Positions 29,770 to 62,127 of a DNA stretch of 64,000 nt are shown in pieces. The first letter of the stretch is position 1; the number at the start of each line of letters is the position of its first letter. The notes under the pieces are model-generated. The model had not been told where the DNA came from and did no database searches. It was given only the letters and a program-made list of their open reading frames with translations. Made by a program: the position numbers and the translations under genes. Source of the DNA: an uncultured Oscillospiraceae bacterium (GTDB taxonomy: Bacteria > Bacillota > Clostridia > Oscillospirales > Acutalibacteraceae); contig CASEZK010000058.1 in NCBI GenBank assembly GCA_949292425.1, forward strand, positions 5 through 64,004, given 5' to 3'.

Positions 29770-29803
29770 AAAAAGCCACATCAACACCGAGTATTGATGC
29801 GGC
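29770..29803 (-). terminator. intrinsic terminator of rnpB
   Basis: On the minus strand, a gccgcatcaa...ttgatgtggc stem followed by TTTTT. Confidence 0.6.
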
Positions 29804-29808
29804 CTTAT

Positions 29809-30150
29809 GTGACTAAATCTATAAGCCGAGTTCTGTTGAAAGCAGTCATCTATCTTGGCCAAATGTCACCATTCAGCTCAGTGCCACCTTTAAGACATAC
29901 CGAGCAGGCACATAAATGTCTTATTTGCGGTGTTGCTCCAGATAGGGTTTACATAGCCACACAGTCTCCTATGCGCTGGTGAGCTCTTACCTCGCCTTTC
30001 CATCCTTACCAAAGTTGGCGGTATATTTCTGTTGCACTATCCCTAGGGTTGCCCCCGGCGGCCGTTAGCCGTTATCTTGCTCTGTGGAGCTCGGACTTTC
30101 CTCGCGTACACCCTTTCGGTAAAGTACCCGCGACTGCTCAATTTACTCAC
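29809..30150 (-). ncRNA. rnpB: RNase P RNA (ends approximate)
   Basis: The minus strand contains the universally conserved GAGGAAAGTCCGAGCTC and ACAGAACTCGGCTTA blocks. A P1-like pairing gtgagtaaat/atttagtcac closes the structure. The stretch is locally GC-rich in an AT-rich genome. Confidence 0.88.
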
Positions 30151-30227
30151 AGAATAATTTTAACATTATATTTTAGTTTTGTCAAAATATAAAATGATAT
30201 ATCGTATTCCAAATAATAAGTATTAAT

Positions 30228-30422
30228 CTAACTACGTGGTCTTTTTTCGTTAAAATTGTGCTTTATAGAGTTGATTTCATGAAAGCTTTGTGTGTTTTTA
30301 TGAGTACCAAAATGTTGGGTGTTATCTATACTTGTATAATTATAAGATAACCCTCCAGAAATTCCACCTAAACTGTCTTCTATCAATTCTATTATATCAT
30401 TCTTTTTATTATCCTTTTCCAT
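30228..30422 (-). CDS. 64-aa peptide with double-glycine leader (…IIELIEDSLGGISGG) and Asn/Thr/Ser/His-rich, Cys-free core
   Basis: RBS aaaggag 9 nt upstream. The gene lies 27 nt downstream of the GNAT gene on the same strand. Confidence 0.55.
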   Translation of the reverse strand: MEKDNKKNDIIELIEDSLGGISGGLSYNYTSIDNTQHFGTHKNTQSFHEINSIKHNFNEKRPRS

Positions 30423-30449
30423 CTTTTTAAACTCCTTTCATATTTAAAG

Positions 30450-31025
30450 TCAATTTAAAATTTTATAATATAGAGCAGCATCACATTTACAAGGGCCGTT
30501 GCACTCTACGCAAGTATAGTTTTTGTCGTTTTCCCAAATTCTATGTACAGTTTTAAAGAAGGTAAATCCTGACTTTAAAAGTACATTTTCAACAGGAACA
30601 TAACTGCCTCTTTTCCAAGCGGGACACCATGCTGCTTTATACCCTATTTTTTGAGCTTTGTCCAAGGTTCTGTTAAACAAATTATATCCTAGTCCCATTT
30701 TTTCACAATCTTTTCTAAGTGCCATGGATTTAGTGTGGCATATGGAACTGTCGGACCCTGTTACAGAAATTAGTTCTTGCTTAGGTATTTTAAAGTCCTT
30801 TTCAGCACTATTCATATTATCTTCAAAGAATAAACAGTAGCCCAGTACATTGCCGTTTTCATCCAAGGCTAATGTGCACATTTCGTTATCACAATTCACA
30901 TGATCTAAAATTTTTTTTCTATCTATATAATTTTCTCCAAATCTGCCAACGGCGACATTTATCATATCGTCCAAATACTCGTTTACAAAATTTGAATAGG
31001 TAACATTTTTTACCTGAGTCATCAT
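30450..31025 (-). CDS. GNAT-family N-acetyltransferase with C-terminal Cys cluster (CVECNGPCKC)
   Basis: GNAT-like beta4/motif A region (ALDENGNVLGYCLF ... RKDCEKMGLGYNLF). An RBS is present. Confidence 0.65.
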   Translation of the reverse strand: MMTQVKNVTYSNFVNEYLDDMINVAVGRFGENYIDRKKILDHVNCDNEMCTLALDENGNVLGYCLFFEDNMNSAEKDFKIPKQELISVTGSDSSICHTKSMALRKDCEKMGLGYNLFNRTLDKAQKIGYKAAWCPAWKRGSYVPVENVLLKSGFTFFKTVHRIWENDKNYTCVECNGPCKCDAALYYKILN

Positions 31026-31045
31026 TTCTCATCCTTTTCTTTTGT

Positions 31046-31079
31046 TCTGGCTCTGTGTCATTAACACCACAGAGCCAGA
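31046..31079 (-). other. perfect 12-bp intercistronic stem-loop between the large gene and the GNAT gene
   Basis: tctggctctgtg / cacagagccaga with a 10-nt loop and no T-run. Confidence 0.5.
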
Positions 31080-31094
31080 TATAACGTAATAATA

Positions 31095-34000
31095 TTAATT
31101 TTTTGCTTGTAGTACTCCGTCTACAAGTTCATATTCATCTTTTATACTTTGAGCTACACGTATTCTAGCAGCTGTTCCATCAGATTTTTTAACTGTTAAA
31201 CTTTCTAAAGGTGTTGTTCCCCACTGCAAAAATCTTTTCGTCTGATTTTGTAAATACTCTATTACTTCTTCATTTACCTCAAACAACTCATCTGCGTCAC
31301 TCTTTAAAATTACGGTTATATTACCACGACCGTCTGAAGAAGTTTTTTCTATCATTGATTTTTGCCTGTTTAATACTTCTTCTCCAACAGAAAATGTTAC
31401 TTTACCGTTGCAGAAGTCATCGGGGGATAGACTCAAATAAATTTTTATTTCTTCATTGCCTCCCGCATTCAGCTCTTTTTCATCATATCCAACTTGTACA
31501 CATTTAATGTCAATATTTATCATGTTTTCAATATAATTTAGTAGATTAATATTTTCCTTTTTGAGATATAAGCTATCGCTGTCAGGGTTCATCGTAATAT
31601 AAACTGTCTGTTCCTCTTTATCAAATCTTATTTTTTTAATACCGTTTTCTTGTAAAGTCTTACTACTTAGTTCGTTTCTTCCTAGACGCGTTGCAACATT
31701 TTTATAACTGGAACTATAATCTTCAATGGTAAATCTATCTTTAAGGTCATCTGCAATTGTAGGTATTACACTACCATTGTTTACATGAATAGCTTTTACA
31801 TCGTCTGGCTTTTCATATCCAGTCTGTTTTGCTAAATATTCCAGCAAAGCTTTGTTGATTGTTAAGGTGTTATTTCCATCTTTTAAAGTCACATAAATCC
31901 ATTGACCAGTATAACTACTTGTAGCTTTTGCTATTTTACCAATTCCTATAGCGGCAACTTCATCTACTCCGAACTCGTCCATGATTTTAGCAGTATTTGG
32001 ATCTATGCCATTATTCACAAGTTCGGCGACATTTTTATTTACTTTGTGATCATGCATAGTTTGAGCAATTTCCTTACCTACATTTTCGTCAAGCATAATT
32101 TCAGCGACAGGTCTTGATACTGAAGCTTTTCCCATAATTTTTTGTAATTTTAGATCTCTTATTTCTTGCTGAGTACGGTGCAGCAAGGTATTTCTATCTT
32201 CAGCTTCTTTAAAAATTTCACTTAAATTTTCGTCCAATTCTGGTCTTATATCACAATTATTAAACCTTATAGACTCAACTTTATCTAAACTTCTAAAGCC
32301 TGCCTCTACAGCGAGAGATTTTAAGCTATTTTCTTCAATAGTAACGTTTTTACTTTTGTCAATCAAAGTTAACTCTAAGCAATTTTTTACCTTTTTTACT
32401 CCTTGGACATTAGTTTGCCTAAATATTTTTTCTATTTCTGTAAGTTGACGAATGGTATTATTATAGGAAAATAAATATCCTCTTCCTTTTACAGTTTCAG
32501 GTTCTGCAAAAAGTTCTTTTAAATCATCATCTAATGTTGGCTTAATGTTACCGTTGTTGACTAGTATATATTGAACTTCATTTATACTGCTAAAGCCTGC
32601 TTTATTTATAAAAGTATTTAAGTTGTCTGATGTAATAGTAATGTTGTTGTGCCCATCAGGCAAAGTCAACATTAGCCATCCTCTATCATTTTTAGCTGTT
32701 ACATCATTTACGTTTAGTGTAGCGTTGTCTTCTTTATTAATGGTTTCTTCATGCCTATCGGTATCAACACCACCCATGGGTTGAGTTTGGTCATCTTCTA
32801 AAGGCCGAACAACATCTTTATCTTGGACATTTTCTGCATGCTGATTTTGATCGATGGTTTCTTCACGGCTATCAGCATTAACACTAGCCATTGGAGCGTG
32901 CTCATCTTCTCGCTGTTGTTGCAATTCAAGCTTTAATCTTTCTATCTCAGTATTTCTTTCTTCTAAGGCTCTTGTAAGTCCTTCATTTTTTTCTTTAACG
33001 GAGTTTAACATTTCATTCGTTTGTCTTAATTCCTGCATAAGTTGTCCGAGGTTATTTTGACCATCTACTGCTTGACCGCTTAGTGCTTCCATAGCTCTGT
33101 TTTGACGATCTAATTGTTCGCGCAGTTCACCTATTTGCCGTACATACTCATCTTTCGCATTCGTTACTTGATTTACTTGATCTGCCAGATATTGATTGTT
33201 ACCTCGAAGTTGTTGGATGGCCTCAAGTTGGCCTTGGGTTGTTGCGTTTATTTCTCTTATTTGAGACTCTAAATTTTCAAGTTGCTCTGTTAACGCTAGA
33301 TTTTGTTCGTTGAGACGCTCGATTGTTTCTTTTCCAAGTTCATTTTCTTTAGTTGCAGAATCTAATTGTTGCAGGTTTTGATCTAATTGTTGCTGTAGAC
33401 TATCGATTGATCTTGTCAGCTCTTGCTTTTCCTTTTCAAATTGTTGTTGCAATTCTGCAATGGTTTGCTTTGCATCTCGATTATTGAGGTCACTGTTTAC
33501 TTGCGCAGTTTCTTTAGGTTCTTCTACGTCATCAGTATGGACTCCTTTCACAACTTTATCTTCTCTAAGTGTGATAGTAGGTTGCTGAGTGGAATTCTGT
33601 TCATGACTAACTTTACCCTGCTGCTGTGTGGAAACTTCAAGCGAAGGAGTTTCTTTTTCAACTGAGTTATTGTTAAAAAGATTTTTAAGAAGATTTTCGT
33701 CATCAATATCAACTGTTTTGCGCGAGGGACGAAAATTTGTGTCTGCGCTGAATGAAGGCACACTTTCGTTTAGATCACTATCGCTAAGCCCGCTAGTGCC
33801 TACATAACTATCCTCGTCTTTAGCGTAAGTGCTATTTTCACCACTTTCGTAAGCATTATCTTCAGCATTGTCATCCTCATCTTCATTGTAGAGGGTAGCC
33901 TCTTGTTGTGAGCTAACCGTAGGAGAAGAAAATTGAGACATTTTCATAGCCGCACCTGTGGCGAAAGAGATGCCTAATAATCCTAACATACCAACAGCAG

Positions 34001-34271
34001 CTATCTTAGGAGACATTGCTCCGCCACTTACATTCAACAATTCGTCGTCAGACAATGTAGATTTTAAATCTTTCAAGTACGATTCAAGTTCATCCTTAGA
34101 AAAATCGTAGTGATATTTTTTACTTATATCAACTATTTTTTGTAATAAATCGTTAGAATTTTTTATTTGATCTGATTTTTCCAAATCATTTTGTAATTTT
34201 TTAAATTCTGCTTTTAACTCGTCATTTTCATGTACCTTAGCGTAAAATTTGACGACATTTTCTTTTGACAT
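31095..34271 (-). CDS. 1058-aa protein: Nif11-like GG leader + TM helix + acidic linker + long coiled coil + repeated ~58-aa modules
   Basis: ATG after the aggagg RBS. Sequence MSKENVVKFYAKVHENDELKAEFKKL...LSDDELLNVSGG, then AMSPKIAAVGMLGLLGISFATGAAM. A Q/E/L heptad-rich region of about 190 aa follows, then 3 clear and 2 degenerate repeats. Confidence 0.8.
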   Translation of the reverse strand: MSKENVVKFYAKVHENDELKAEFKKLQNDLEKSDQIKNSNDLLQKIVDISKKYHYDFSKDELESYLKDLKSTLSDDELLNVSGGAMSPKIAAVGMLGLLGISFATGAAMKMSQFSSPTVSSQQEATLYNEDEDDNAEDNAYESGENSTYAKDEDSYVGTSGLSDSDLNESVPSFSADTNFRPSRKTVDIDDENLLKNLFNNNSVEKETPSLEVSTQQQGKVSHEQNSTQQPTITLREDKVVKGVHTDDVEEPKETAQVNSDLNNRDAKQTIAELQQQFEKEKQELTRSIDSLQQQLDQNLQQLDSATKENELGKETIERLNEQNLALTEQLENLESQIREINATTQGQLEAIQQLRGNNQYLADQVNQVTNAKDEYVRQIGELREQLDRQNRAMEALSGQAVDGQNNLGQLMQELRQTNEMLNSVKEKNEGLTRALEERNTEIERLKLELQQQREDEHAPMASVNADSREETIDQNQHAENVQDKDVVRPLEDDQTQPMGGVDTDRHEETINKEDNATLNVNDVTAKNDRGWLMLTLPDGHNNITITSDNLNTFINKAGFSSINEVQYILVNNGNIKPTLDDDLKELFAEPETVKGRGYLFSYNNTIRQLTEIEKIFRQTNVQGVKKVKNCLELTLIDKSKNVTIEENSLKSLAVEAGFRSLDKVESIRFNNCDIRPELDENLSEIFKEAEDRNTLLHRTQQEIRDLKLQKIMGKASVSRPVAEIMLDENVGKEIAQTMHDHKVNKNVAELVNNGIDPNTAKIMDEFGVDEVAAIGIGKIAKATSSYTGQWIYVTLKDGNNTLTINKALLEYLAKQTGYEKPDDVKAIHVNNGSVIPTIADDLKDRFTIEDYSSSYKNVATRLGRNELSSKTLQENGIKKIRFDKEEQTVYITMNPDSDSLYLKKENINLLNYIENMINIDIKCVQVGYDEKELNAGGNEEIKIYLSLSPDDFCNGKVTFSVGEEVLNRQKSMIEKTSSDGRGNITVILKSDADELFEVNEEVIEYLQNQTKRFLQWGTTPLESLTVKKSDGTAARIRVAQSIKDEYELVDGVLQAKN

Positions 34272-34384
34272 AATAATTCCTCCTAATTTTTTTATTTTCA
34301 ATTTTGATGTAAAAGCTCAGCCTCCTCTCTTTAAGTAATAATAAATTATGAAATAAGCTGATACTATTATGCCATATTTATAAT

Positions 34385-34418
34385 ACAACCAAAATAATTA
34401 TATCACAACCAAAATAAT
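34385..34418. repeat. tandem direct repeat ACAACCAAAATAAT x2 (20-bp period) in the promoter region of the large gene
   Basis: Exact 14-mers at 34385-34398 and 34405-34418. The proximal copy abuts a TGgCATAAT-like extended -10 on the minus strand. Confidence 0.5.
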
Positions 34419-34663
34419 ATGTAAACTATTTAAAACAAAGATTTTTCATTTTTCTAAATAAATTCTTAAAAACCTTGATGCCAATACGAAAAACTTATGT
34501 TTTTATGTTGATGAACCGATATGTAAGATGTTTTTTGCACATTTTTATTTAAAAACAAAAAATCCCCAATAAAATTGAGGACTTTTTGAGTAAATTAAAA
34601 ATAAATTATTAATTAATGAAAAAATAAGCAAGAAAATGTTAGTATATATGAGACTTCATAGCC

Positions 34664-39315: not shown

Positions 39316-39699
39316 CAGCTATTTATAAATATTCCAGGTTTGACCGTGGGATATTTTAATTGCAAATTTTTCCACATTAATGCAAACCTCCAAAAACAAC
39401 CCGGAGGTTATTAACATAGCTGTAAATGTTAAAACCATATACCTAATGTTATCGTCAGTTTTCACTTGGTTTGATAAGTATTTACGTTATCTGTACTTTC
39501 ATTTGAGTTTGCTGAATTTATATTTTCAACCTGCCGTGCTATCAATGCGGCTTTTTCTTCGTCTGTTAGCATATCGATCATAGTGTAAGGGTTCACATTA
39601 CCAAATATTTTTTGTTGCCTATTTTTAGCATTTTTCTGATAAGTTCCTGGTCGTCACCGACCCGAATCAAAATCACATTTCAATGTCACTTTCATCTCA

Positions 39700-40924
39700 G
39701 CCTTATGGAATTTCGTATTCCATGTAAACTGCACCATGTAAGTCACTCTTTACTTCTTGTCCGTTCACTGTTGGGTATACTTTAAAGAGGCGAGTAGGAA
39801 AGTACCGCCTTACTGCATTTAAACAGCAGGTTTGCACAAACCTCTCACAGAATCGTGCTTACCCGTCTCTGAGTACACTGCTCCCGCTATCACTTGATTG
39901 CACTTGACTTTTTGGATGATGTATTTTAATGTGACATGCCTTGCAAACCACAATGGTTTTTCGCCGTTTAGCTATCATTGCTCGTTCCCAAATATTCTTA
40001 CCTTTGAGATTTTTCAATTTGTTAACGTGATGAATTTCATAATGTTCTGCTTCGCATGCGTCACAAGGTTCACAGGCTTTCGCCTTTAATCGTTTCTCCA
40101 TAGCATAACGAATATACTTAAATCCTTATCCGCTTGTGATTTGCACTGCGTTTTAAACAATTCCTGTTTTGCTAATTTGTATGTTTTATCAGTTCTTGTC
40201 TTTTTTTGCCGTCTGCTTCACTTATCTAGATGTTAAGCTTTTTCATCTTCCGCCTTACAACACTATACTCGTAGGTGAAGTGCTTTTCTTTGGGTTTGTT
40301 TGAGTTTTGTGCAATTCTTGCTAAAATTTTAGCCGTTGGTTGCATATGAGGTTTTCCTCCCTAATTGACTTTTATTTTAGTGCATGATAACTGCGTTACT
40401 TCGCCATGTAATGGGAATTATCTCTCAGACTACCACAGACGCTCCGTTGCCTTATCTGATATTCAGCGTCATCTTTCTCACTGTTGCTTGAAACTTATCA
40501 CCTTGCGGTATTACGCATAGTCTTTTCAGGCATTCCGCTTTAGGCAATCCCCAGTTAGTACTGTGTATTGGTTTGCAGATTGTCGGTTGTGCTTTTGTTT
40601 CATTACCACAGGTTCACCTGCAGGTTGTATGGTGTCGTCGATAACAAACTAACAGACCAATATCGTCAGTTTTTTGCCATACCAAAGGTCTCAGATATTT
40701 TCCTTTGCTCCGGCAAAAAGAGGAACTAGAAACTCACATTCATTAAATCCAAATTCAACCTCGTATCTGCTTAGCATCACAGTTCGGTCGCTTCCGAATA
40801 TCTTTAAAAGACTTACTGCTTTCCTACCATGCTTTGTTCCCGAGTCAGCTTTCGCCTTTCGGTTAGGTAGGTTGCTTCGAGTGTTATCTTACTCGGTAGT
40901 ACCTTACACTACTTTACACCGCAC
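39700..40924 (-). mobile_element. group II intron relic with internally deleted IEP (3' boundary unresolved)
   Basis: The minus strand begins GTGCGGTG at 40924, followed by about 580 nt of ORF-free, structured-looking sequence. A 38-codon ORF (40229-40345, MQPTAKILARIAQNS...) resembles an RT N-terminus. A YIRYA (YADD-region) remnant comes next, followed by an intact HNH C-terminus. Confidence 0.6.
39859..40101 (-). pseudogene. HNH endonuclease C-terminal fragment of a group II intron reverse transcriptase/maturase
   Basis: Sequence CEPCDACEAEHYEIHHVNKLKNLKGKNIWERAMIAKRRKTIVVCKACHIKIHH. No RT or X domain ORF lies upstream. Confidence 0.7.
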
Positions 40925-41649
40925 TCTACTGGGTACACGTTGCCTATTGCGATTATCAGTTTAAGGTAGTAATGATGTATAACCAAGTCATTAATTCGAA
41001 TGATGAGTTGTTTGGGCTTTTTGTGATAAATATGACTTCGTGTACTGGGTACTTTGGTCACCATAGACTATATCACCGCGAAGATTGGTATAAGATAAAT
41101 ATGCGCTCTTAATGTGCTTTTACAAATAGGATACATTTATGCCATTATCTATTTCACTCCAAGCAAGGCTGTGGCATCATAGCAATCAAATATTGATAAG
41201 ACATGCAATTTGCCATTTTTATTTCATTTCTGTTACATTCGGTAACGCAATTTCTCGAGTAACTTACCTGATGAAAATGTATTTTCTGATTTTTGTGCCT
41301 ACCTATGTAATTACGTTTGGGTTACTTTTCGAATGTTTAGAAAGTCCTATTTTCTCCACAGCACAGTAGTAGCCCTTTTACTTGCCATATTTATTTAATT
41401 TTCTTCAGTCATGTTTTTTATTTTCCCTTCTAGGATTCTTAACTCTTTTGACCTTGCTATGTTTATTTTGCTAATTTTGCTGTTTATGTTTTGGAGTATT
41501 ATTTATATTTCTTTGCTGTTATTTTTGTCTCCTAATTTTTTATCATTTTATTAAGAACATCTTATCGGTTTTTTATACTATATCAAGTTTATTGTCAAAA
41601 GATATAATAATTTATTAAACATATTGTTGTTATATGTGAAATATATGAA

Positions 41650-41678
41650 TTGACAAAATATTTGAAATAGTATATAAT
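41650..41678 (+). promoter_or_regulatory. perfect consensus sigma-A promoter
   Basis: TTGACA, 17-nt spacer, TATAAT. Confidence 0.65.
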
Positions 41679-41746
41679 TAATACGTAAGTTTTAGTTTAT
41701 CATTGCTATTTTAAAATGAACCATTATAGAAAAGGAGTAAAAATTT

Positions 41747-43105
41747 ATGAAAAAATTATTAGCTGCAATAATGTGCATTTGTTTAATTACATCAAGCATA
41801 GGCATTTCAGTATCTGCTGCAAACGAAAGTGATGATAACCATACAGATGAAACGCTTATCTCATATTTACTTAAACCTATCCCATATTTACTTAAACCAG
41901 TCTTTTGGGCAGGGTCGCTTATTGATAGCGCTGCTAAGGCAACAGCTTATTCAATTGGGATGGCTTCTCCAATTTTGATAATGATTCTAGTAAACAAATT
42001 TAGTGAACTATATAAGACGCATCAAGCAAGGGCAAACTGTGGAACTATAGACCCTGTTAGAGATCCTATTTTAGTCATAAATAAGTTAGACAGTTACCTG
42101 AAAAATGTAAAAGGGCAAGAAAAAGCCAAGGAAAAACTAAGAAATTTTGTTATAAATTTAGTAGATGAACGTAACAAAAAACTTTCTGGGATTTCTAAAA
42201 AGAAGGGAGCTAATTTAATTTATTTTGTAGGCCCGTCAGGCGTAGGAAAATCTTTATCTGCTGAGATTTTAACCAAAGTTATTACAGGGAATAATTCTCT
42301 ACCATATATAATAGAACCTTCTGATATTGATAAGGGATCTAAAAAGTCTAGTGTTGTAGAACAATTATTTGGAATGAGAGCTAAAAAAATAAATAATTCG
42401 GAATACTACGAATTGTCACCACTTTTGCTGCAACTAAAAGCTACCCCTAATATGGTAGTCATAATAAATGAATATGACAAATTACAAACTAAAGATCTAG
42501 ATGAAAAACTAAGGACTATCTTAGACCAGGGCTATGTAAAAGTAAACGGAGAAACCATAGATTGTTCACACGCAACCTTTATAATTACTTCAAACGAAAG
42601 TTTAGGTTCTATCTCGAAAGGTGCACATGAAGACGACGGTACAGGTTCTCGTACGTATGTAGAACACGACAAAGCATTCTTGAATAGAATCAAGTTTATA
42701 AATTTTGAAAACTTAAGTTTTGAACAATATAAGGAAATAGCACAAGCACCTTGTGCTGATTTACAAAAAAATTACCTAGCTTCATATAAGATATTCGTCG
42801 ATTTTAATGATGCCATAGAAAGAATAGCAGATTTAACTGAAAAGCTGAATCAGGGAGCTAGGCCAATTCAAGACTTTGTAGATAAATTAAATGAAAAGAT
42901 ATTAACCGAAGTTATTCTTAAAAATTCGAAAGACAGAAATTATGAAGGAAAAACGTACAAGGTTTCTTATGATGAGTCAAGAGAAGATTTTGTTGTAAAT
43001 GAAATAAAAAAGCCAGTTAGTGAGTCAACACAAACAGGTGAAAGTGTTGGTGCAAATGCAAATGAAGTAAATAGCAATACAATAAGCTTGCAGCAAACTG
43101 CATAA
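41747..43105 (+). CDS. signal-peptide/TM-anchored standalone AAA+ ATPase resembling ClpA/ClpB NBD2 (torsin-like architecture)
   Basis: Signal peptide MKKLLAAIMCICLITSSIGISVSA|AN, then a TM segment AYSIGMASPILIMILVNKF. Contains VKGQEKAK, Walker A GPSGVGKS, Walker B-like VVIINEYDK, sensor-1 FIITSN and FLNRI. Confidence 0.7.
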   Translation: MKKLLAAIMCICLITSSIGISVSAANESDDNHTDETLISYLLKPIPYLLKPVFWAGSLIDSAAKATAYSIGMASPILIMILVNKFSELYKTHQARANCGTIDPVRDPILVINKLDSYLKNVKGQEKAKEKLRNFVINLVDERNKKLSGISKKKGANLIYFVGPSGVGKSLSAEILTKVITGNNSLPYIIEPSDIDKGSKKSSVVEQLFGMRAKKINNSEYYELSPLLLQLKATPNMVVIINEYDKLQTKDLDEKLRTILDQGYVKVNGETIDCSHATFIITSNESLGSISKGAHEDDGTGSRTYVEHDKAFLNRIKFINFENLSFEQYKEIAQAPCADLQKNYLASYKIFVDFNDAIERIADLTEKLNQGARPIQDFVDKLNEKILTEVILKNSKDRNYEGKTYKVSYDESREDFVVNEIKKPVSESTQTGESVGANANEVNSNTISLQQTA

Positions 43106-43149: not shown

Positions 43150-44142
43150 TTACTCTTCATCAAATTTTTTTATGTACTTTTTAGCTAATGGGTTCGATGA
43201 AATTGCTTTTTCAATTTGCCTATTAGAAACATGAGTATATATCTCAGTAGTGCCCAAGTTAGAATGTCCCAGTATATCCTTTAACACTCTTATATCTACA
43301 TTCCCATGCTGATACATAAGTGTAGCAGCGGTGTGTCTTAGCTTATGAACTGAATAACCCTCATTTTTCAAATTTGCTTTATTTAGGTATTTATATACCA
43401 AAGCTTGTACAGTCTTTGGACTAATTCTTTTTTTTTGTTTACTTATAAACAAAGCATTCCTATCAGCAATTCCATTCATTGGTCTAACTTTTAAATAATT
43501 TTTTATAGCACTATTGCATGCTTCATTTAAGTAAATTATTCTTTCTTTATTACCTTTTCCTGTTAATCTTAAAGTGTTGTCGGATCTTATATCGCTTAAG
43601 TTCATATTTACAAGCTCAGACAAACGCATACCGCAGTTTAAAAAAAGAGTTAATATGCAAAAATCTCTCTCTCTGTAAGTTCCAGTTACACTATTTAACA
43701 ACTCTAAGCTTTCTTCTAATGTTAAAAATTTGGGTAGTGAAGACTTCTTTTTAGGGGTATCGATTTCTTTACATGGGTTTTCATCTATTTGGTGAGTTTT
43801 ATTTGACAAAAAATTGAAAAAGGATCTTAAACATGAAATTTTTCTTGCTTTAGTGGACGAGCTATTTTTTCTTTCATAAGTAAGGTAATTAAAGTAATCG
43901 TAAATATCCGTAAGCGTAATACTTTTTACCATTTGGATATCTATATCATCAATTTTGATATCTTTAAAATTTTCAGAATTTTTGGCCTCAGAATATTTAA
44001 ACTTTTTAATATATCTGAAAAAAGTACGAAGATCTAAGTAATACTCGCTTACTGTCTTAGGTGATTTTCCTTTAATATTCAACATATAATTTAAAAAATC
44101 TTTTATAACTGGTGAGGTAATGCTAAAGTTAGGATTTTTCAT
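43150..44142 (-). CDS. tyrosine recombinase, XerC/XerD-like (start uncertain: 44142, 44184 or 44274)
   Basis: Contains HKLRHTAATLMYQHG...LGHSNLGTTEIYTHV and an N-terminal SAM-like core-binding motif (SPKTVSEYYLDLRTFFRY). Confidence 0.85.
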   Translation of the reverse strand: MKNPNFSITSPVIKDFLNYMLNIKGKSPKTVSEYYLDLRTFFRYIKKFKYSEAKNSENFKDIKIDDIDIQMVKSITLTDIYDYFNYLTYERKNSSSTKARKISCLRSFFNFLSNKTHQIDENPCKEIDTPKKKSSLPKFLTLEESLELLNSVTGTYRERDFCILTLFLNCGMRLSELVNMNLSDIRSDNTLRLTGKGNKERIIYLNEACNSAIKNYLKVRPMNGIADRNALFISKQKKRISPKTVQALVYKYLNKANLKNEGYSVHKLRHTAATLMYQHGNVDIRVLKDILGHSNLGTTEIYTHVSNRQIEKAISSNPLAKKYIKKFDEE

Positions 44143-44470
44143 TTTTATGAACCTCGCTGTTTCTATAAAATTTTCTAAGAACATTGTAACACTTTTAACT
44201 TCCAGTAAACAAGTATGATGTAGAGTATAGGTAGTACCACATAATATGCGAAAAGAATAGCTAAAATAATACAAATAGACTTACAAAAATAATGTTATAA
44301 GTGTAAAATCAATTAAGTCAACAGAGATTTTCTATTAAACGCAAATTATAATGTTGTACAGTTTTTGAAGCTCATTTCGCGTTCTTCTTTAACTAAAAAG
44401 TGATAAACTTAGCCACCTTTATGGCAGCTAAATGTTTTTTTCACAGGTGATTTCGTTAAATTGTCAGTAG

Positions 44471-58218: not shown

Positions 58219-58521
58219 ATGAACTTACAAGAGTTTATGGACAAAAACCCAGAACTGATGAAAAAGGCGGCAGAGTGTAAAGATGTGCAAGAATTTGCGA
58301 AATTTGCAAAAGAAAATGGTGTAGAAATAAAACCAGAAGGACTAAAAGATGCATATGGATATGTGCGCTCTCACTACGGCAGTGGAGAGTTGAGTGAGGA
58401 TGCACTGTCTAGTGTAGCTGGAGGAAAGGGCGGATCTGAGTATGAAATACTTAATTCTTCAAACCTATACCAAAATGCTAAAAATAAGGATGAATATATT
58501 TATAAAAAATCCAAAAAATAA
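58219..58521 (+). CDS. Nif11-like leader peptide precursor (leader ends LSEDALSSVAGG; 31-aa Cys-free Lys/Asn/Tyr/Glu-rich core)
   Basis: RBS aaggagg. The helical leader has the ELSEDAL..VAGG motif typical of Nif11-type RiPP/bacteriocin precursors. Confidence 0.65.
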   Translation: MNLQEFMDKNPELMKKAAECKDVQEFAKFAKENGVEIKPEGLKDAYGYVRSHYGSGELSEDALSSVAGGKGGSEYEILNSSNLYQNAKNKDEYIYKKSKK

Positions 58522-61112: not shown

Positions 61113-61137
61113 CAAGTTCAAATTAGGAGTGAAAGTT

Positions 61138-62127
61138 ATGTCAAATTCAAATGGAAAAACGTCTTATTTACAAAGTATACCAAAGCTACATATATTAAAA
61201 GATGTAGGTACTAAAACCATAGAAACTGAAAGGTTGCTTTTAAGAAAGTTTAAGGTTGAAGATGCAAAAGATATGTACAACAATTGGGCTACAGATCCGG
61301 AAGTTTCAAGGTATGTCAATTGGTTGCCACATAAGTGCATAGAAGAGACTGAAGAAATTATATCTTTATGGGTTTCTCAATACGAAAATGAGCATTGTTA
61401 CCGATGGTGTATTGTAGATAAAGCTAGCAATGAGGCTATTGGCAGCATAGATGTAGTTCATCTCTTTAAAGAGGCTTGTTGTGCGGAAATAGGCTATGCC
61501 ATGTCTAGAAAATTTTGGGGTAAAGGCATAATGACAGAAGTTTTCAAAGCAGTTATAGCTTACCTTTTCGACAAAGCAAATTTTAACCGTATACAAGCTC
61601 GATTTGACGTTGATAATCCTGCGTCGGGTAGAGTTATGCAAAAAGCTGGACTTAGCTATGAGGGCACAATGCGTCAGCCGAACACCGATAATACTGGACA
61701 TTTTTGCAGTTGTACATTGTATTCTATATTAAGAGAAGAATACTTAAAAATGAAAGAGCAATATAAAAACTTAGAAATGAAGACAAATAAAAGCTTCTGG
61801 GATCTGCTTGATGAAATGGTTAAAAATTCTGAAATAATAATAATAGATAGGCCAAAGAGCACAGCACACCCTAGGTTTAAAGAGGCTATTTATCCATTGG
61901 ACTATGGTTACTTAAGCGGCACAACTGCATGCGACGGAGAAGGCATAGATATTTTCGTCGGTTCTATGAGCAGCAAAAAAGTAGATGCTATATTGTGCAC
62001 TGTAGATTATTTAAAGAAAGACTCAGAAATAAAAATAATGCTTGGTTGCACGGAAGAAGAAAAAATGGCAGCTCATAACTTTTTAAATTCTACTAGCTTT
62101 ATGAAGAACATTTTAATACGTAGATAA
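61138..62127 (+). CDS. fusion protein: RimJ/RimL-type GNAT N-acetyltransferase + C-terminal inorganic-pyrophosphatase-like domain
   Basis: N-terminal: ETERLLLRKFKVEDAKDMYNNWATDPEVSRY. C-terminal: AIYPLDYGYLSGTTACDGEGIDIFVGS, which resembles the PPase YP.NYG...DGDP.DV motif. Confidence 0.65.
   Translation: MSNSNGKTSYLQSIPKLHILKDVGTKTIETERLLLRKFKVEDAKDMYNNWATDPEVSRYVNWLPHKCIEETEEIISLWVSQYENEHCYRWCIVDKASNEAIGSIDVVHLFKEACCAEIGYAMSRKFWGKGIMTEVFKAVIAYLFDKANFNRIQARFDVDNPASGRVMQKAGLSYEGTMRQPNTDNTGHFCSCTLYSILREEYLKMKEQYKNLEMKTNKSFWDLLDEMVKNSEIIIIDRPKSTAHPRFKEAIYPLDYGYLSGTTACDGEGIDIFVGSMSSKKVDAILCTVDYLKKDSEIKIMLGCTEEEKMAAHNFLNSTSFMKNILIRR

What the first reader, a model, noticed from the sequence alone, without database searches (positions are those of the whole stretch)
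30228..31025. GG-leader peptide translationally adjacent to a Cys-cluster GNAT: candidate acylated RiPP-like module
A 64-aa ORF has a leader fitting the double-glycine pattern (I-4, L-7, L-12 relative to ISGG). Its 40-aa core is Cys-free and N/T/S/H-rich (LSYNYTSIDNTQHFGTHKNTQSFHEINSIKHNFNEKRPRS). It lies 27 nt downstream of a GNAT acetyltransferase that ends in CVECNGPCKCDAALYY. Both follow the Nif11-leader giant gene on the same strand, separated by a perfect 12-bp stem-loop (31046-31079). GNATs are known tailoring enzymes in several RiPP classes. No protease, exporter, cyclase or rSAM gene is present, so the combination does not match a described class.
Basis: inference. Interest (0 to 1): 0.65.

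Follow-up and report, generated by a model that had tools for sequence, protein, structure and literature searches.

The report
Conserved GG-leader peptide plus GNAT module
A small secreted-type peptide gene and an unusual cysteine-rich acyltransferase gene travel together, often with giant membrane proteins that carry the same cleavage motif, in gut and rumen Clostridia; this is probably an undescribed peptide-tailoring system, but no modification has been shown.

Summary
All features lie on the minus strand. A 64-aa ORF (30228..30422) has a strong Shine-Dalgarno site and a canonical double-glycine leader. It sits 27 nt after a 191-aa GNAT (30450..31025). The GNAT follows a 1058-aa Nif11-N-terminal gene and a 12-bp hairpin.

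The small ORF is a real gene. It lies next to GNAT homologues in 9 of 15 lineages sampled. Its leader differs mostly by synonymous codons (113 vs 42). In four other loci an intrinsic terminator follows it.

The GNAT belongs to an uncharacterised family with a Cys4 knuckle between the last two strands. It matches no housekeeping family. Three clades of this family link to double-glycine systems in different ways:
- Nif11-TM giants plus a downstream peptide.
- An upstream GG peptide alone.
- An operon with a HlyD-like protein and a C39-peptidase ABC exporter.

My best reading (about 0.45) is a leader-guided acyltransferase acting on GG-leader substrates that are exported by a transporter encoded elsewhere. 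The acyl group, the acceptor site and the role of the giant are all unknown. The nearest known kind is GNAT-tailored GG-leader RiPPs (selidamides and N-acylated lipopeptide RiPPs), so I rate this a new variant, not a new category. Interest is moderate.

The parts
34397..34425 (-). Promoter-like site TTTACA-17-TATAAT with an extended TG (11 of 12 matches), about 100 nt upstream of the giant gene. DNA homology to related loci begins here, at 34431.
   Evidence: consensus scan; blastn block 34431..33902, 73% identity to L003/L014/L026/L028. The promoter assignment is inferred, not shown.
31095..34271 (-). Giant gene of 1058 aa from the ATG (the longest ORF starts at a TTG at 34301). It has a Nif11-like N-terminal domain (34086..34271) and the junction TLSDDELLNVSGG with GG at 34020..34025. 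A single TM helix follows (33945..34007). After that come an acidic low-complexity stretch, a coiled coil and a lineage-specific C-terminal region.
   Evidence: PF07862 27.0 bits against 23.8; TIGR03798 24.3 bits, below its 32.3 cut-off. (one hydrophobic segment). (only the first 110-250 aa are conserved among giants of other loci). (coordinates).
31046..31079 (-). Perfect 12-bp stem with a 10-nt loop between the giant and the GNAT. No U-tract follows it on the coding strand, so it is not a canonical terminator. It could be an attenuating or RNA-stabilising hairpin.
   Evidence: It is conserved with loop changes in L002/L003/L026, replaced by a different GC hairpin in L005, and absent in L008/L011. 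It is not listed by the terminator scan.
30450..31025 (-). GNAT-fold acyltransferase of 191 aa. Motif A is intact (RKDCEKMGLG). The Cys4 knuckle CVECNGPCKC (30483..30512) is inserted between the last two beta strands. Four further Cys are invariant in the close clade.
   Evidence: Pfam; alignment A1, eight invariant Cys. (AF2 pLDDT 85.5; strands 154-159 and 182-188 flank the knuckle). (Foldseek: generic GNATs, TM 0.6-0.7). (932 representatives at E<=1e-3). (the four C-terminal Cys are invariant across clades).
30432..30438 (-). Shine-Dalgarno site AAAGGAG, 9 nt before the peptide ATG.
   Evidence: Equivalent GGAGG or AGGAG sites precede the peptide gene in the related loci.
30351..30422 (-). 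Leader of the small peptide (aa 1-24): a Lys-rich N-terminus followed by IIELIEDSLGGISGG. This is a double-glycine leader with L-12, L-7 and I-4.
   Evidence: The block [VI][IL]E[LF]IEDSLG[GD][VI]SGG is conserved in seven loci, with 113 synonymous against 42 non-synonymous codon differences. The positions match the LahT150 and ComA recognition rules (PMC6363468).
30228..30350 (-). Core of the small peptide (aa 25-64, plus the stop codon). The first 14 residues, LSYNYTSIDNTQHF (30309..30350), are conserved across lineages. The consensus is an aromatic residue at +2 to +4, then [NS]-[ILV]-D-[NSD]-x-x-H-[FW]. The basic tail after that is lineage-specific.
   Evidence: DNA homology to the UMGS1224-type loci stops at 30321/30322, inside this ORF.

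Best explanation
This is a self-contained operon found in gut and rumen Clostridia (Ruminococcaceae-like). Its order is: promoter, one or more Nif11-leader/TM 'giant' proteins, a Cys4-knuckle GNAT, a small double-glycine-leader peptide, then the end of the operon.

The GNAT is most likely a cytoplasmic, CoA-dependent acyltransferase. I propose that it recognises the GG-type leader or junction of the operon's own products and transfers an acyl group to them. The small peptide is the likeliest target, and the giant's N-terminal module is a possible second one. A peptidase-containing ABC transporter (PCAT) encoded elsewhere in the genome would then cut after the GG and export the product. That product would be a short, hydrophilic, cationic, Cys-free linear peptide, more like a signal or a narrow-spectrum bacteriocin than a cyclised RiPP.

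What is shown:
- The genes are real.
- The peptide-GNAT and Nif11-GNAT pairings are conserved.
- The enzyme has a GNAT fold and an intact CoA motif.
- The leader fits a PCAT substrate.
- The GNAT family is linked to PCAT operons.

What is inferred:
- That the GNAT acts on the peptide at all.
- The acyl donor.
- The acceptor residue.
- The cleavage and export step in this organism.
For: 1. The peptide is a real gene. It has a strong SD site. Its leader block shows 113 synonymous against 42 non-synonymous codon differences across seven loci. Intrinsic terminators follow it directly in L003, L005, L008 and L011.

2. Co-occurrence. A small GG-leader ORF follows the GNAT at 16-48 nt in six close-clade lineages with 61-97% GNAT identity. 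It precedes the GNAT in three lineages with only 36-41% identity, including Clostridium sp. CAG:557 and mouse and human gut MAGs. The flanking housekeeping genes differ between loci.

3. Link to export machinery. In L023 and L039/L040 the GNAT homologue is the first gene of GNAT, Peripla_BP_6, HlyD-like, PCAT. The PCAT has C39, ABC_membrane and ABC_tran domains, and the catalytic-Cys motif is present.

4. Enzyme plausibility. AF2 gives pLDDT 85.5 and Foldseek gives probability 1.0 to many GNATs. The motif-A residues are conserved. No curated housekeeping family matches.

5. Conserved enzyme with fast-evolving partners. Between the window and UMGS1224-type loci the GNAT is 97% identical. The giant is only 45-49% identical, and the peptide tail is unrelated.

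6. Shared junction change. The giant (ISGG|RLSPK) and the peptide (VSGG|RLSYN) of L002, L003 and L014 carry the same extra Arg after the GG.

7. Precedent. GNAT maturases occur in about 8% of NHLP/Nif11 GG-leader clusters (PMC8784127).
Against: - No conserved Lys, Orn or Arg acceptor sits at core positions 1-2. The only near-universal core feature is an aromatic residue at +2 to +4, and that residue is Phe in one lineage, so it cannot be the acceptor everywhere.
- Six of the 15 lineages in the two nearest clades show no adjacent small peptide. Some of these are on short contigs.
- One lineage has giants and the GNAT but no peptide.
- No PCAT or other exporter lies in the 64-kb window.
- The wider Cys4-GNAT family (932 representatives) includes fusions to HTH and methyltransferase domains. 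Its contexts were not sampled and may have nothing to do with peptides.
- The GNAT has no recognisable RiPP recognition element.
- The RNA data are uninformative.
Confidence: 0.45

Rival explanations
1. The small peptide is an unmodified class II-type GG peptide (a bacteriocin or pheromone). The GNAT is not a maturase. It is a producer-protection or regulatory enzyme. For example, it could acetylate and so inactivate peptide that stays in or re-enters the cytoplasm, or it could acetylate a cellular target. On this reading the co-occurrence reflects immunity or regulation, not tailoring.
For: - The operon has no other candidate immunity gene.
- The cores are linear, Cys-free and cationic, like unmodified GG peptides.
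- No conserved acceptor residue lies near the junction.
- An immunity gene would fit a position in a PCAT operon equally well.
- Precedent from my own knowledge, not tested here: the MccE GNAT domain detoxifies processed microcin C.
Against: - Immunity to exported GG bacteriocins is normally provided by small membrane proteins.
- This reading does not explain why the GNAT stays with Nif11-TM giants when the small peptide is absent.
- It does not explain the Arg insertion shared by the giant and peptide junctions.
Confidence: 0.22
2. The true partner of the GNAT is the conserved N-terminal module of the giants (Nif11 domain, GG, TM helix). The enzyme would acylate that cytoplasmic or juxtamembrane segment of a polymorphic surface protein. 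The small peptide would be an accessory, such as a decoy, competitor, regulator or minimal paralogue, and not the main substrate.
For: - In the close clade a Nif11-TM protein lies beside the GNAT in eight of eleven lineages. One of these has no small peptide (L001/L015). In another the gene order is reversed (L037).
- Only the first ~110-140 aa of the giants are conserved. This is the part a cytoplasmic enzyme could reach.
- The giant's junction fits the L-12, E-8, L-7, V-4, GG rule exactly.
Against: - Three lineages with 36-41% GNAT identity have a small GG peptide and no Nif11-TM protein at all.
- The small peptide's leader and first 14 core residues are under clear purifying selection.
- The residues after the giants' GG are Lys in some lineages and Arg in others, so a fixed Lys acceptor is not evident there either.
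Confidence: 0.18
3. Adjacency without functional coupling. The GNAT is a small-molecule or housekeeping acetyltransferase that happens to sit in a variable region that also collects GG-peptide genes.
For: - The wider family is large, and its members have varied domain fusions.
- The structural neighbours are polyamine or arylalkylamine N-acetyltransferases and N-terminal acetyltransferases.
- Several lineages lack an adjacent peptide.
Against: - Three different kinds of linkage to GG systems appear in three clades, across different genomic backgrounds and gene orders.
- Gaps of 16-48 nt and a shared terminator indicate co-transcription.
- Homology between the window and the UMGS1224-type loci is confined to the module itself.
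Confidence: 0.1
4. A GNAT-toxin/antitoxin pair, with the small protein neutralising a tRNA-acetylating GNAT toxin.
For: - It is a two-gene cassette of a small ORF and a GNAT.
- A ribbon-helix-helix-like 61-70-aa ORF lies about 0.5 kb upstream of the GNAT in the CAG:557-type loci.
Against: - In the window the small ORF lies downstream, not upstream. It has no DNA-binding domain, and it carries a canonical export leader.
- The window-clade loci have no RHH gene.
- Nothing in PADLOC matches the GNAT or the peptide, and only the generic GNAT models match in Pfam/NCBIfam.
- The GNAT is conserved at 97% while its supposed antitoxin diverges freely in its C-terminal half.
Confidence: 0.03

Closest known systems
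Selidamides (kamptornamide, phaeornamide, nostolysamides): GNAT maturases KspN, PhaN and NpuN acting on NHLP/Nif11 GG-leader precursors (PMC8784127, PMC13647313)
   Same: - A small cytoplasmic GNAT is encoded beside a Gly-Gly-leader precursor.
- The cluster can be minimal and can lack its own protease or exporter (the ksp cluster does).
- A Nif11-type leader gene is in the same operon.
- The cores are Lys/Arg-rich.
- The enzyme is conserved while the cores vary.
   Different: - The small precursor here has a short 24-aa leader with no Nif11 or NHLP homology.
- Core positions 1-2 are Leu-Ser here and vary among homologues, whereas selidamides have the acylated Lys or Orn there.
- The GNAT carries a Cys4 knuckle and four more invariant Cys.
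- Its relation to the selidamide GNAT clade could not be tested, because no sequences were on hand.
- The Nif11-bearing genes here are 166-2200-aa TM proteins, not peptides.
N-terminally acylated RiPPs (goadvionins, lipolanthines, lipoavitides, aphotorhaptins; N-acetylated microviridins), as listed in PMC13647313
   Same: - A GNAT acts as the tailoring enzyme of a ribosomal peptide.
- Acting on the new N-terminus would account for the conserved first few core residues (x-x-aromatic).
- The best TM-scores normalised to the target are to N-terminal acetyltransferases: Ard1, Naa30 and Naa50 at 0.81-0.87.
   Different: - Those systems have further maturases (lanthionine or avionin synthetases, ATP-grasp ligases, FAS/PKS) and Cys/Ser/Thr-rich cores. 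Here no other maturase is present and the core is Cys-free.
- N-terminal acylation would require the leader to be removed inside the cell, before export. Nothing here shows that.
Class II double-glycine peptides and their PCAT exporters (ComC/ComA, LahA/LahT, CtA/PCAT1)
   Same: - The leader geometry is the same: hydrophobic residues at -4, -7 and -12, then GG.
- The core is short, linear and cationic.
- A PCAT and a HlyD-like partner lie next to distant GNAT homologues.
   Different: - Those peptides are usually unmodified and sit beside their transporter, immunity or two-component genes.
- Here the only constant neighbour is a GNAT, and no transporter lies within 64 kb.
Nif11-leader RiPP precursors (TIGR03798) and lactobin A/cerein 7B-type class IIb bacteriocins (TIGR03949)
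   Same: - The giants' first ~85 aa are a Nif11-type leader ending in LLNVSGG.
- The next ~25 residues are a Gly/Ala-rich hydrophobic helix that resembles a class IIb bacteriocin core (E=0.011).
   Different: - Both matches are below the curated cut-offs.
- The 'core' continues for 70 to more than 2000 residues of lineage-specific sequence.
- To my knowledge no PCAT substrate of that size has been described.

Membership tests
Double-glycine (GG) leader peptide / PCAT substrate | Gly-Gly (or GA/GS) at the leader-core junction | tested here: met
   The sequence is ...SLGGISGG|LSY. The second GG is the conserved one, because the first becomes GD in L008 and L035.
Double-glycine (GG) leader peptide / PCAT substrate | Hydrophobic residues at -4, -7 and -12 (and -15), with an acidic residue near -8 | tested here: met
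   The peptide has I-4, L-7, L-12 and I-15. It has D-9 and E-10 but Ser at -8. The rule is taken from PMC6363468. The giant's junction fits fully, with L-12, E-8, L-7 and V-4.
Double-glycine (GG) leader peptide / PCAT substrate | A cognate C39-peptidase ABC transporter in the genome | not testable with these tools
   None is among the 20 large window ORFs scanned. The rest of the genome was not available. A PCAT is present next to distant GNAT homologues.
Double-glycine (GG) leader peptide / PCAT substrate | Cleavage after the GG and export of the core | not testable with these tools
   This needs biochemistry, for example LahT150 digestion or mass spectrometry of culture supernatant.
Selidamide-type GNAT-acylated RiPP | Precursor with an NHLP or Nif11 leader | tested here: not met
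   The 64-aa peptide has no Pfam or NCBIfam hit. Only the giant and a separate 100-aa ORF at 58219..58521 have Nif11 leaders.
Selidamide-type GNAT-acylated RiPP | Lys, or Arg-derived Orn, at core position 1-2 as the acyl acceptor | tested here: not met
   Core positions 1-2 are L-S in the window. In homologues they are R-L, I-K, V-R, V-E, V-Y, Q-D, Q-T and M-N.
Selidamide-type GNAT-acylated RiPP | The GNAT falls in the RiPP-associated selidamide clade | not tested
   No KspN, PhaN or NpuN sequences were obtainable. There is no PDB relative by sequence.
Selidamide-type GNAT-acylated RiPP | A fatty-acylated product | not testable with these tools
   This needs mass spectrometry.
GNAT superfamily acyltransferase | GNAT fold | tested here: met
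   The AF2 model has pLDDT 85.5 and pTM 0.83. Foldseek gives 626 PDB matches at E<=1e-3, and the listed top matches are GNATs with TM 0.6-0.7.
GNAT superfamily acyltransferase | Sequence membership and CoA-binding motif A (R/Q-x-x-G-x-G/A) | tested here: met
   PF00583 scores 22.7 bits against its gathering score of 20.7, which is borderline. The segment ...EKMGLG... is conserved in A1 and A3. The reading of the motif is my own.
GNAT superfamily acyltransferase | Acyl-CoA-dependent transfer activity | not testable with these tools
   This needs an enzyme assay.
GNAT-toxin / RHH-antitoxin modules (TacAT, AtaRT, KacAT type) | A small upstream antitoxin with an RHH DNA-binding domain | tested here: not met
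   The small ORF lies downstream, has no domain hit and carries an export leader. PADLOC gives nothing.
Nif11-leader RiPP precursor (TIGR03798), for the giant gene | Nif11-type leader ending in GG | tested here: inconclusive
   PF07862 is above its cut-off (27.0 against 23.8). TIGR03798 is below its cut-off (24.3 against 32.3).
Nif11-leader RiPP precursor (TIGR03798), for the giant gene | A short core peptide after the leader | tested here: not met
   About 975 residues follow the GG, starting with a TM helix.

The most novel reading that the evidence does not exclude
The Cys4-knuckle GNAT is a junction-specific acyltransferase serving a system that applies RiPP logic to whole proteins. That logic is a conserved leader, tailoring guided by the leader or junction, and Gly-Gly cleavage by a PCAT. 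Here it would be applied not only to a small peptide but to polymorphic surface proteins of 166 to more than 2200 aa, whose only conserved part is a Nif11-GG-TM head. The acyl mark at the junction would control processing or anchoring of these giants. The small peptide would be a co-evolving minimal substrate or signal from the same machinery.
Probability: 0.12. Interest if true: 0.8.

Novelty: new variant of a known kind. Interest (0 to 1): 0.5.

Why it matters
If the GNAT does modify the peptide, this would be one of the simplest RiPP-like pathways known. It would have one enzyme, one short GG-leader precursor and no cyclase, and it is widespread in uncultured gut and rumen Clostridia. It would supply a new, compact, leader-guided acyltransferase scaffold with a metal-knuckle substrate loop for peptide engineering. 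It would also add a new family of secreted peptides that may act in gut community signalling or competition. Separately, the GNAT is constantly paired with hypervariable giant proteins that carry a perfect PCAT recognition motif directly before a TM helix. That raises a testable question: can double-glycine processing act on very large membrane proteins?

Tried and rejected
**Searches that gave little**
- Sequence search of the GNAT profile against the PDB gave only weak generic GNAT hits.
- Foldseek gave only generic GNAT neighbours, with no specific subfamily.
- The homologue search with the giant's N-terminal 135 aa returned a single hit because of the word index.
- Self-BLAST of the giant found no internal repeats at 1e-3, although three similar ~60-aa segments are visible by eye.
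- The genome scan with the broad alignment A2 failed for lack of a conserved stretch. A1 and A3 worked.
- No GG-leader ORF was found near the GNAT in L015, L020, L023, L024, L030, L036, L038 or L039.
- RNA evidence is uninformative. Two runs labelled transcriptomic hold the locus only as contigs, with flat depth of about 9x like the DNA run, against 140-220x over rnpB.
- Supplements with selidamide GNAT sequences are not held, so the clade test could not be run.
- A literature search for a described GNAT plus double-glycine peptide system in Clostridia found none.

**Readings rejected**
- Spurious ORF: rejected on conservation, the synonymous/non-synonymous ratio, the SD site and the terminators.
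- Toxin-antitoxin pair: rejected on gene order, domains and the export leader.
- Defence system: no PADLOC match to the GNAT or the peptide, and only weak coiled-coil-type hits to the giant.
- Foreign island by composition: GC content is flat at about 0.31-0.39 across the locus.
- Hairpin 31046..31079 as an intrinsic terminator: it has no U-tract and the scan does not call it.
Full report
**What is in the window**

Everything in the finding lies on the minus strand. Reading 5' to 3' on that strand, the order is as follows.
- A promoter-like site, TTTACA-17-TATAAT with an extended TG, lies at 34425..34397.
- A 1058-aa gene spans 34271..31095. Its longest ORF starts at a TTG at 34301.
- A perfect 12-bp hairpin lies at 31079..31046.
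- A 191-aa GNAT gene spans 31025..30450.
- After a 27-nt spacer that holds the SD site AAAGGAG comes a 64-aa ORF at 30422..30228.

The next feature downstream is unrelated. It is the RNase P RNA gene at 30149..29806 (Rfam 262 bits). It has its own TTGACA-17-TAAAAT promoter at 30185..30157 and a terminator at 29806..29772.

The 64-aa product splits into two parts.
- The leader is MEKDNKKNDIIELIEDSLGGISGG.
- The 40-aa Cys-free core is LSYNYTSIDNTQHFGTHKNTQSFHEINSIKHNFNEKRPRS.

Counted from the second GG, the leader has I-4, L-7, L-12 and I-15. These are the positions that the C39 protease LahT150 packs into its hydrophobic groove, and they agree with the ComA consensus (PMC6363468).

The surroundings carry no maturation or export genes. 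The 20 large ORFs I scanned are all housekeeping or otherwise unrelated to peptide maturation or export. They include tyrS, rsmI, a UvrD/PcrA helicase, proS, FeoB, enolase and GAPDH. The unscanned ORFs of 150 aa or more mostly lie in the ribosomal-protein cluster.

**The small ORF is a real gene**

A word-indexed search found only three close relatives. Inspection of the loci that encode GNAT homologues found many more. In six close-clade lineages the GNAT is 61-97% identical to the window's. In each of them a 54-75-aa ORF follows the GNAT at 16-48 nt and has a GGAGG-type SD site.

The block [VI][IL]E[LF]IEDSLG[GD][VI]SGG is almost invariant in these ORFs. The first ~14 core residues keep a recognisable pattern: an aromatic residue at +2 to +4, then [NS]-[ILV]-D-[NSD]-x-x-H-[FW]. 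The rest of the core is a lineage-specific basic tail.

Three further points support a coding gene.
- Over the 15-codon leader block in seven loci there are 113 synonymous and 42 non-synonymous pairwise codon differences.
- In L003, L005, L008 and L011 a strong hairpin follows the stop codon, with a U-run in the latter three, so the peptide gene closes the operon.
- A GG-leader pattern scan over the whole window in six frames returns this ORF and only three non-specific matches.

**The GNAT**

Pfam assigns it to Acetyltransf_1 only narrowly, at 22.7 bits against a cut-off of 20.7. NCBIfam places it in no curated family.

The AF2 model is confident (pLDDT 85.5, pTM 0.83). It matches hundreds of solved GNATs at TM 0.6-0.7 and 10-17% identity. 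The neighbours are arylalkylamine and polyamine N-acetyltransferases and N-terminal acetyltransferases. The CoA-binding motif A is intact.

The distinctive feature is the segment Y-x-C-x2-C-x-G-P-C-x-C-x3-YYK. In the model it forms the loop between the last two strands (154-159 and 182-188). In N-terminal acetyltransferases this loop helps to close the peptide-binding site. That last point rests on general knowledge of the fold and is an inference here.

An exhaustive profile search found 932 cluster representatives at E<=1e-3. The matches run the full length of the protein, including this segment. The four C-terminal Cys are invariant across 28 diverse members. Four more Cys are invariant only in the close clade, and Cys96 at the start of beta4 is also kept in the next clade. 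Some distant members are fused to HTH-XRE, methyltransferase or membrane domains. The family has no Pfam model of its own.

**Three independent links between this GNAT family and double-glycine systems**

1. *Close clade (53-97% identity).* The GNAT sits beside one to four proteins with a shared head. The head is a Nif11 domain, then ...E[DE]LLNVSGG, then at once a Gly/Ala-rich TM helix. This holds in eight of eleven lineages. One of them has no small peptide (L001/L015, Eubacteriales bacterium SKADARSKE-1). In another the Nif11-TM gene follows the GNAT (L037).

2. *Next clade (36-41% identity).* These are Clostridium sp. CAG:557 and several mouse and human gut MAGs, where the locus follows rplQ in most. 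There is no giant. Instead a 58-87-aa ORF lies immediately upstream of the GNAT, ending ...LNEL[NK]ED[ED]LLN[VI]AGG|Q[DT][YF]H.... This is seen in three of four lineages.

3. *More distant members.* In L023 and in L039/L040 the GNAT is the first gene of a tight operon. The operon reads GNAT, Peripla_BP_6, HlyD-like protein, 744-aa ABC transporter. The transporter has an N-terminal C39 peptidase domain and the catalytic-Cys motif.

Gene order, partner type and genomic background all differ between the three situations. The tie to GG-type substrates and their exporter is the common element.

**The module behaves as a unit with fast-evolving cargo**

I compared the window with the UMGS1224-type loci, whose GNAT is 97% identical. 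DNA similarity is limited to two blocks.
- Block 34431..33902 covers the promoter and the Nif11-GG-TM head, at 73%.
- The second block reaches 88.7% over 31083..30322, which covers the hairpin, the GNAT, the peptide leader and the conserved core. In L003 and L014 it extends into the giant's 3' end, to about 32000, at about 80%.

Everything outside these blocks differs, as does the peptide tail. The two giants are 45-49% identical. Giants of other lineages share only their first 110-250 residues.

The hairpin between giant and GNAT is kept in the nearest loci. It is replaced by another hairpin in L005 and is absent in L008 and L011. It lacks a U-tract, so at most it modulates read-through or RNA stability.

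In L002, L003 and L014 the giant (ISGG|RLSPK) and the peptide (VSGG|RLSYN) share an extra Arg after the GG that the window lacks. This is a hint that one machine reads both junctions.

**Most likely mechanism**

The simplest account of the conserved pairings is a leader- or junction-guided acyltransferase. It would act in the cytoplasm on GG-leader products of its own operon. A PCAT encoded elsewhere would then cleave after the GG and export the product. I put this at about 0.45.

Several things are not known.
- *The donor.* It could be acetyl-CoA or a longer acyl-CoA.
- *The acceptor.* No Lys or Orn is conserved at core positions 1-2, unlike the selidamides. The only near-universal core feature is an aromatic residue at +2 to +4, which is Phe in one lineage, so it is more likely a recognition element than the acceptor. 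A Ser within +2 to +7 is present in every core I listed. The new N-terminus after cleavage and the Lys-rich leader N-terminus also remain candidate sites.
- *The giant.* Whether it is a substrate is open.

The main rivals are these.
- The GNAT protects the producer or regulates, and the peptide is unmodified (0.22).
- The Nif11-TM head of the giants is the real substrate (0.18).
- The genes are adjacent without functional coupling (0.10).
- The pair is a toxin-antitoxin module (0.03).

**Comparison with what is known**

GNAT maturases in GG-leader NHLP/Nif11 clusters are an established kind. They occur in about 8% of 2,346 such candidate clusters, and Firmicutes account for 18.6% of the clusters. 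The characterised selidamide enzymes acylate Lys or Orn at core position 1-2 before the leader is removed (PMC8784127; PMC13647313). Other RiPP GNATs acylate the N-terminus after leader removal. These act in goadvionins, lipolanthines, lipoavitides and aphotorhaptins (PMC13647313).

The present module works like these in outline, but it fails two selidamide membership features. The small precursor has no NHLP or Nif11 leader, and it has no Lys or Orn at positions 1-2. The GNAT's clade could not be tested.

It also differs in three other ways: the Cys4 knuckle, the absence of any other maturase, and the co-operonic giant TM proteins. I found no paper that describes this GNAT family or this pairing. 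I therefore file it as a new variant of a known kind.

**Verdict**

Interest is moderate (0.5). It is a good, cheap target for co-expression and mass spectrometry, but it does not overturn anything.

Noticed in passing
window 58219..58521 (+): There is a second GG-leader gene in the window. It is a 100-aa ORF directly after feoB, with a Nif11-type leader (TIGR03798 29.2 bits, E=8e-7, below the 32.3 cut-off). The leader ends ...ELSEDALSSVAGG. The 31-aa core is Cys-free and Lys-rich and begins with Lys (KGGSEYEILNSSNLYQNAKNKDEYIYKKSKK). A Lys at core position 1 is the selidamide acceptor position, so this peptide could be an in-trans substrate of the GNAT. A Gate-domain gene (the domain found in FeoB) also precedes the Nif11 genes in L001 and the GNAT in L037.
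   Followed up: partly
window 29806..30149 (-), promoter 30157..30185, terminator 29772..29806: The RNase P RNA gene (class A, 262 bits) lies immediately downstream of the peptide gene. It has a near-consensus promoter. No terminator separates it from the peptide gene, so the operon may read through into rnpB.
   Followed up: partly
window 34431..33902 and 31083..30322, against L003/L014/L026/L028: Homology to the UMGS1224-type loci is confined to the module. It starts exactly at the putative promoter and ends inside the peptide ORF after the conserved core. The flanking genes are unrelated (rnpB and ridA here; dnaB_2-like and secreted-protein genes there). The module therefore seems to have moved or been exchanged as a cassette.
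   Followed up: partly
giant genes: window 31095..34271; L001 1601..7762; L035 11..5917; L008 4179..9678: Proteins that share only a ~110-aa Nif11-GG-TM head carry unrelated C-terminal regions of 70 to more than 2000 aa. Up to four paralogues sit in tandem. This looks like a polymorphic surface or secreted protein family with a conserved targeting head.
   Followed up: partly
L017 4713..4925, L018 7298..7492, L019 7222..7434, L021 7238..7423: A conserved 61-70-aa ORF lies upstream of the GG peptide and GNAT in the CAG:557-type loci (...FKIPIVPPTTNKCIRFPNDVIERVE...FSAFVVEAVRVAL...). By eye it looks like a ribbon-helix-helix protein. It has no Pfam hit. It may be a local regulator.
   Followed up: no
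L003 10832..17911 (- strand): Downstream of the module in the UMGS1224-type locus there is an array of genes on the opposite strand that encode ~150-290-aa proteins. At least two of them begin with a signal-peptide-like MRRFLKK... sequence (seen in the equivalent L014 locus). The one scanned has no Pfam hit.
   Followed up: no
window 39380..41700, including 39859..40101 (-): This ~2.3-kb stretch has no long ORF. It contains an 80-aa fragment with a Cys/His-rich motif of the HNH type, which by eye resembles the C-terminus of a group II intron maturase. It may be a decayed mobile element. There is no Rfam hit at gathering threshold.
   Followed up: no
window 43150..44274 (-) and 41747..43105 (+): A tyrosine recombinase/integrase (Phage_integrase 128 bits) lies next to a secreted AAA-domain protein, about 9 kb from the module.
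   Followed up: no
window 61129..62127 (+): This is an unrelated second GNAT (Acetyltransf_3, 121 bits). It has an extra ~150-aa C-terminal domain of unknown type.
   Followed up: no
window 30356..30519, runs X2 and X17: In one run labelled transcriptomic, contig depth rises to 23x over the 5' end of the peptide gene and the 3' end of the GNAT, against about 9x on either side. A contig from a related strain diverges at 30452. Contig depth is too coarse to interpret.
   Followed up: partly
L018 7761..7937: The CAG:557 GG peptide gives a weak match to NCBIfam NF002452 (PRK01631, 'hypothetical protein') at E=1.8e-6 and 27.8 bits, against a cut-off of 144. I did not follow this up.
   Followed up: no
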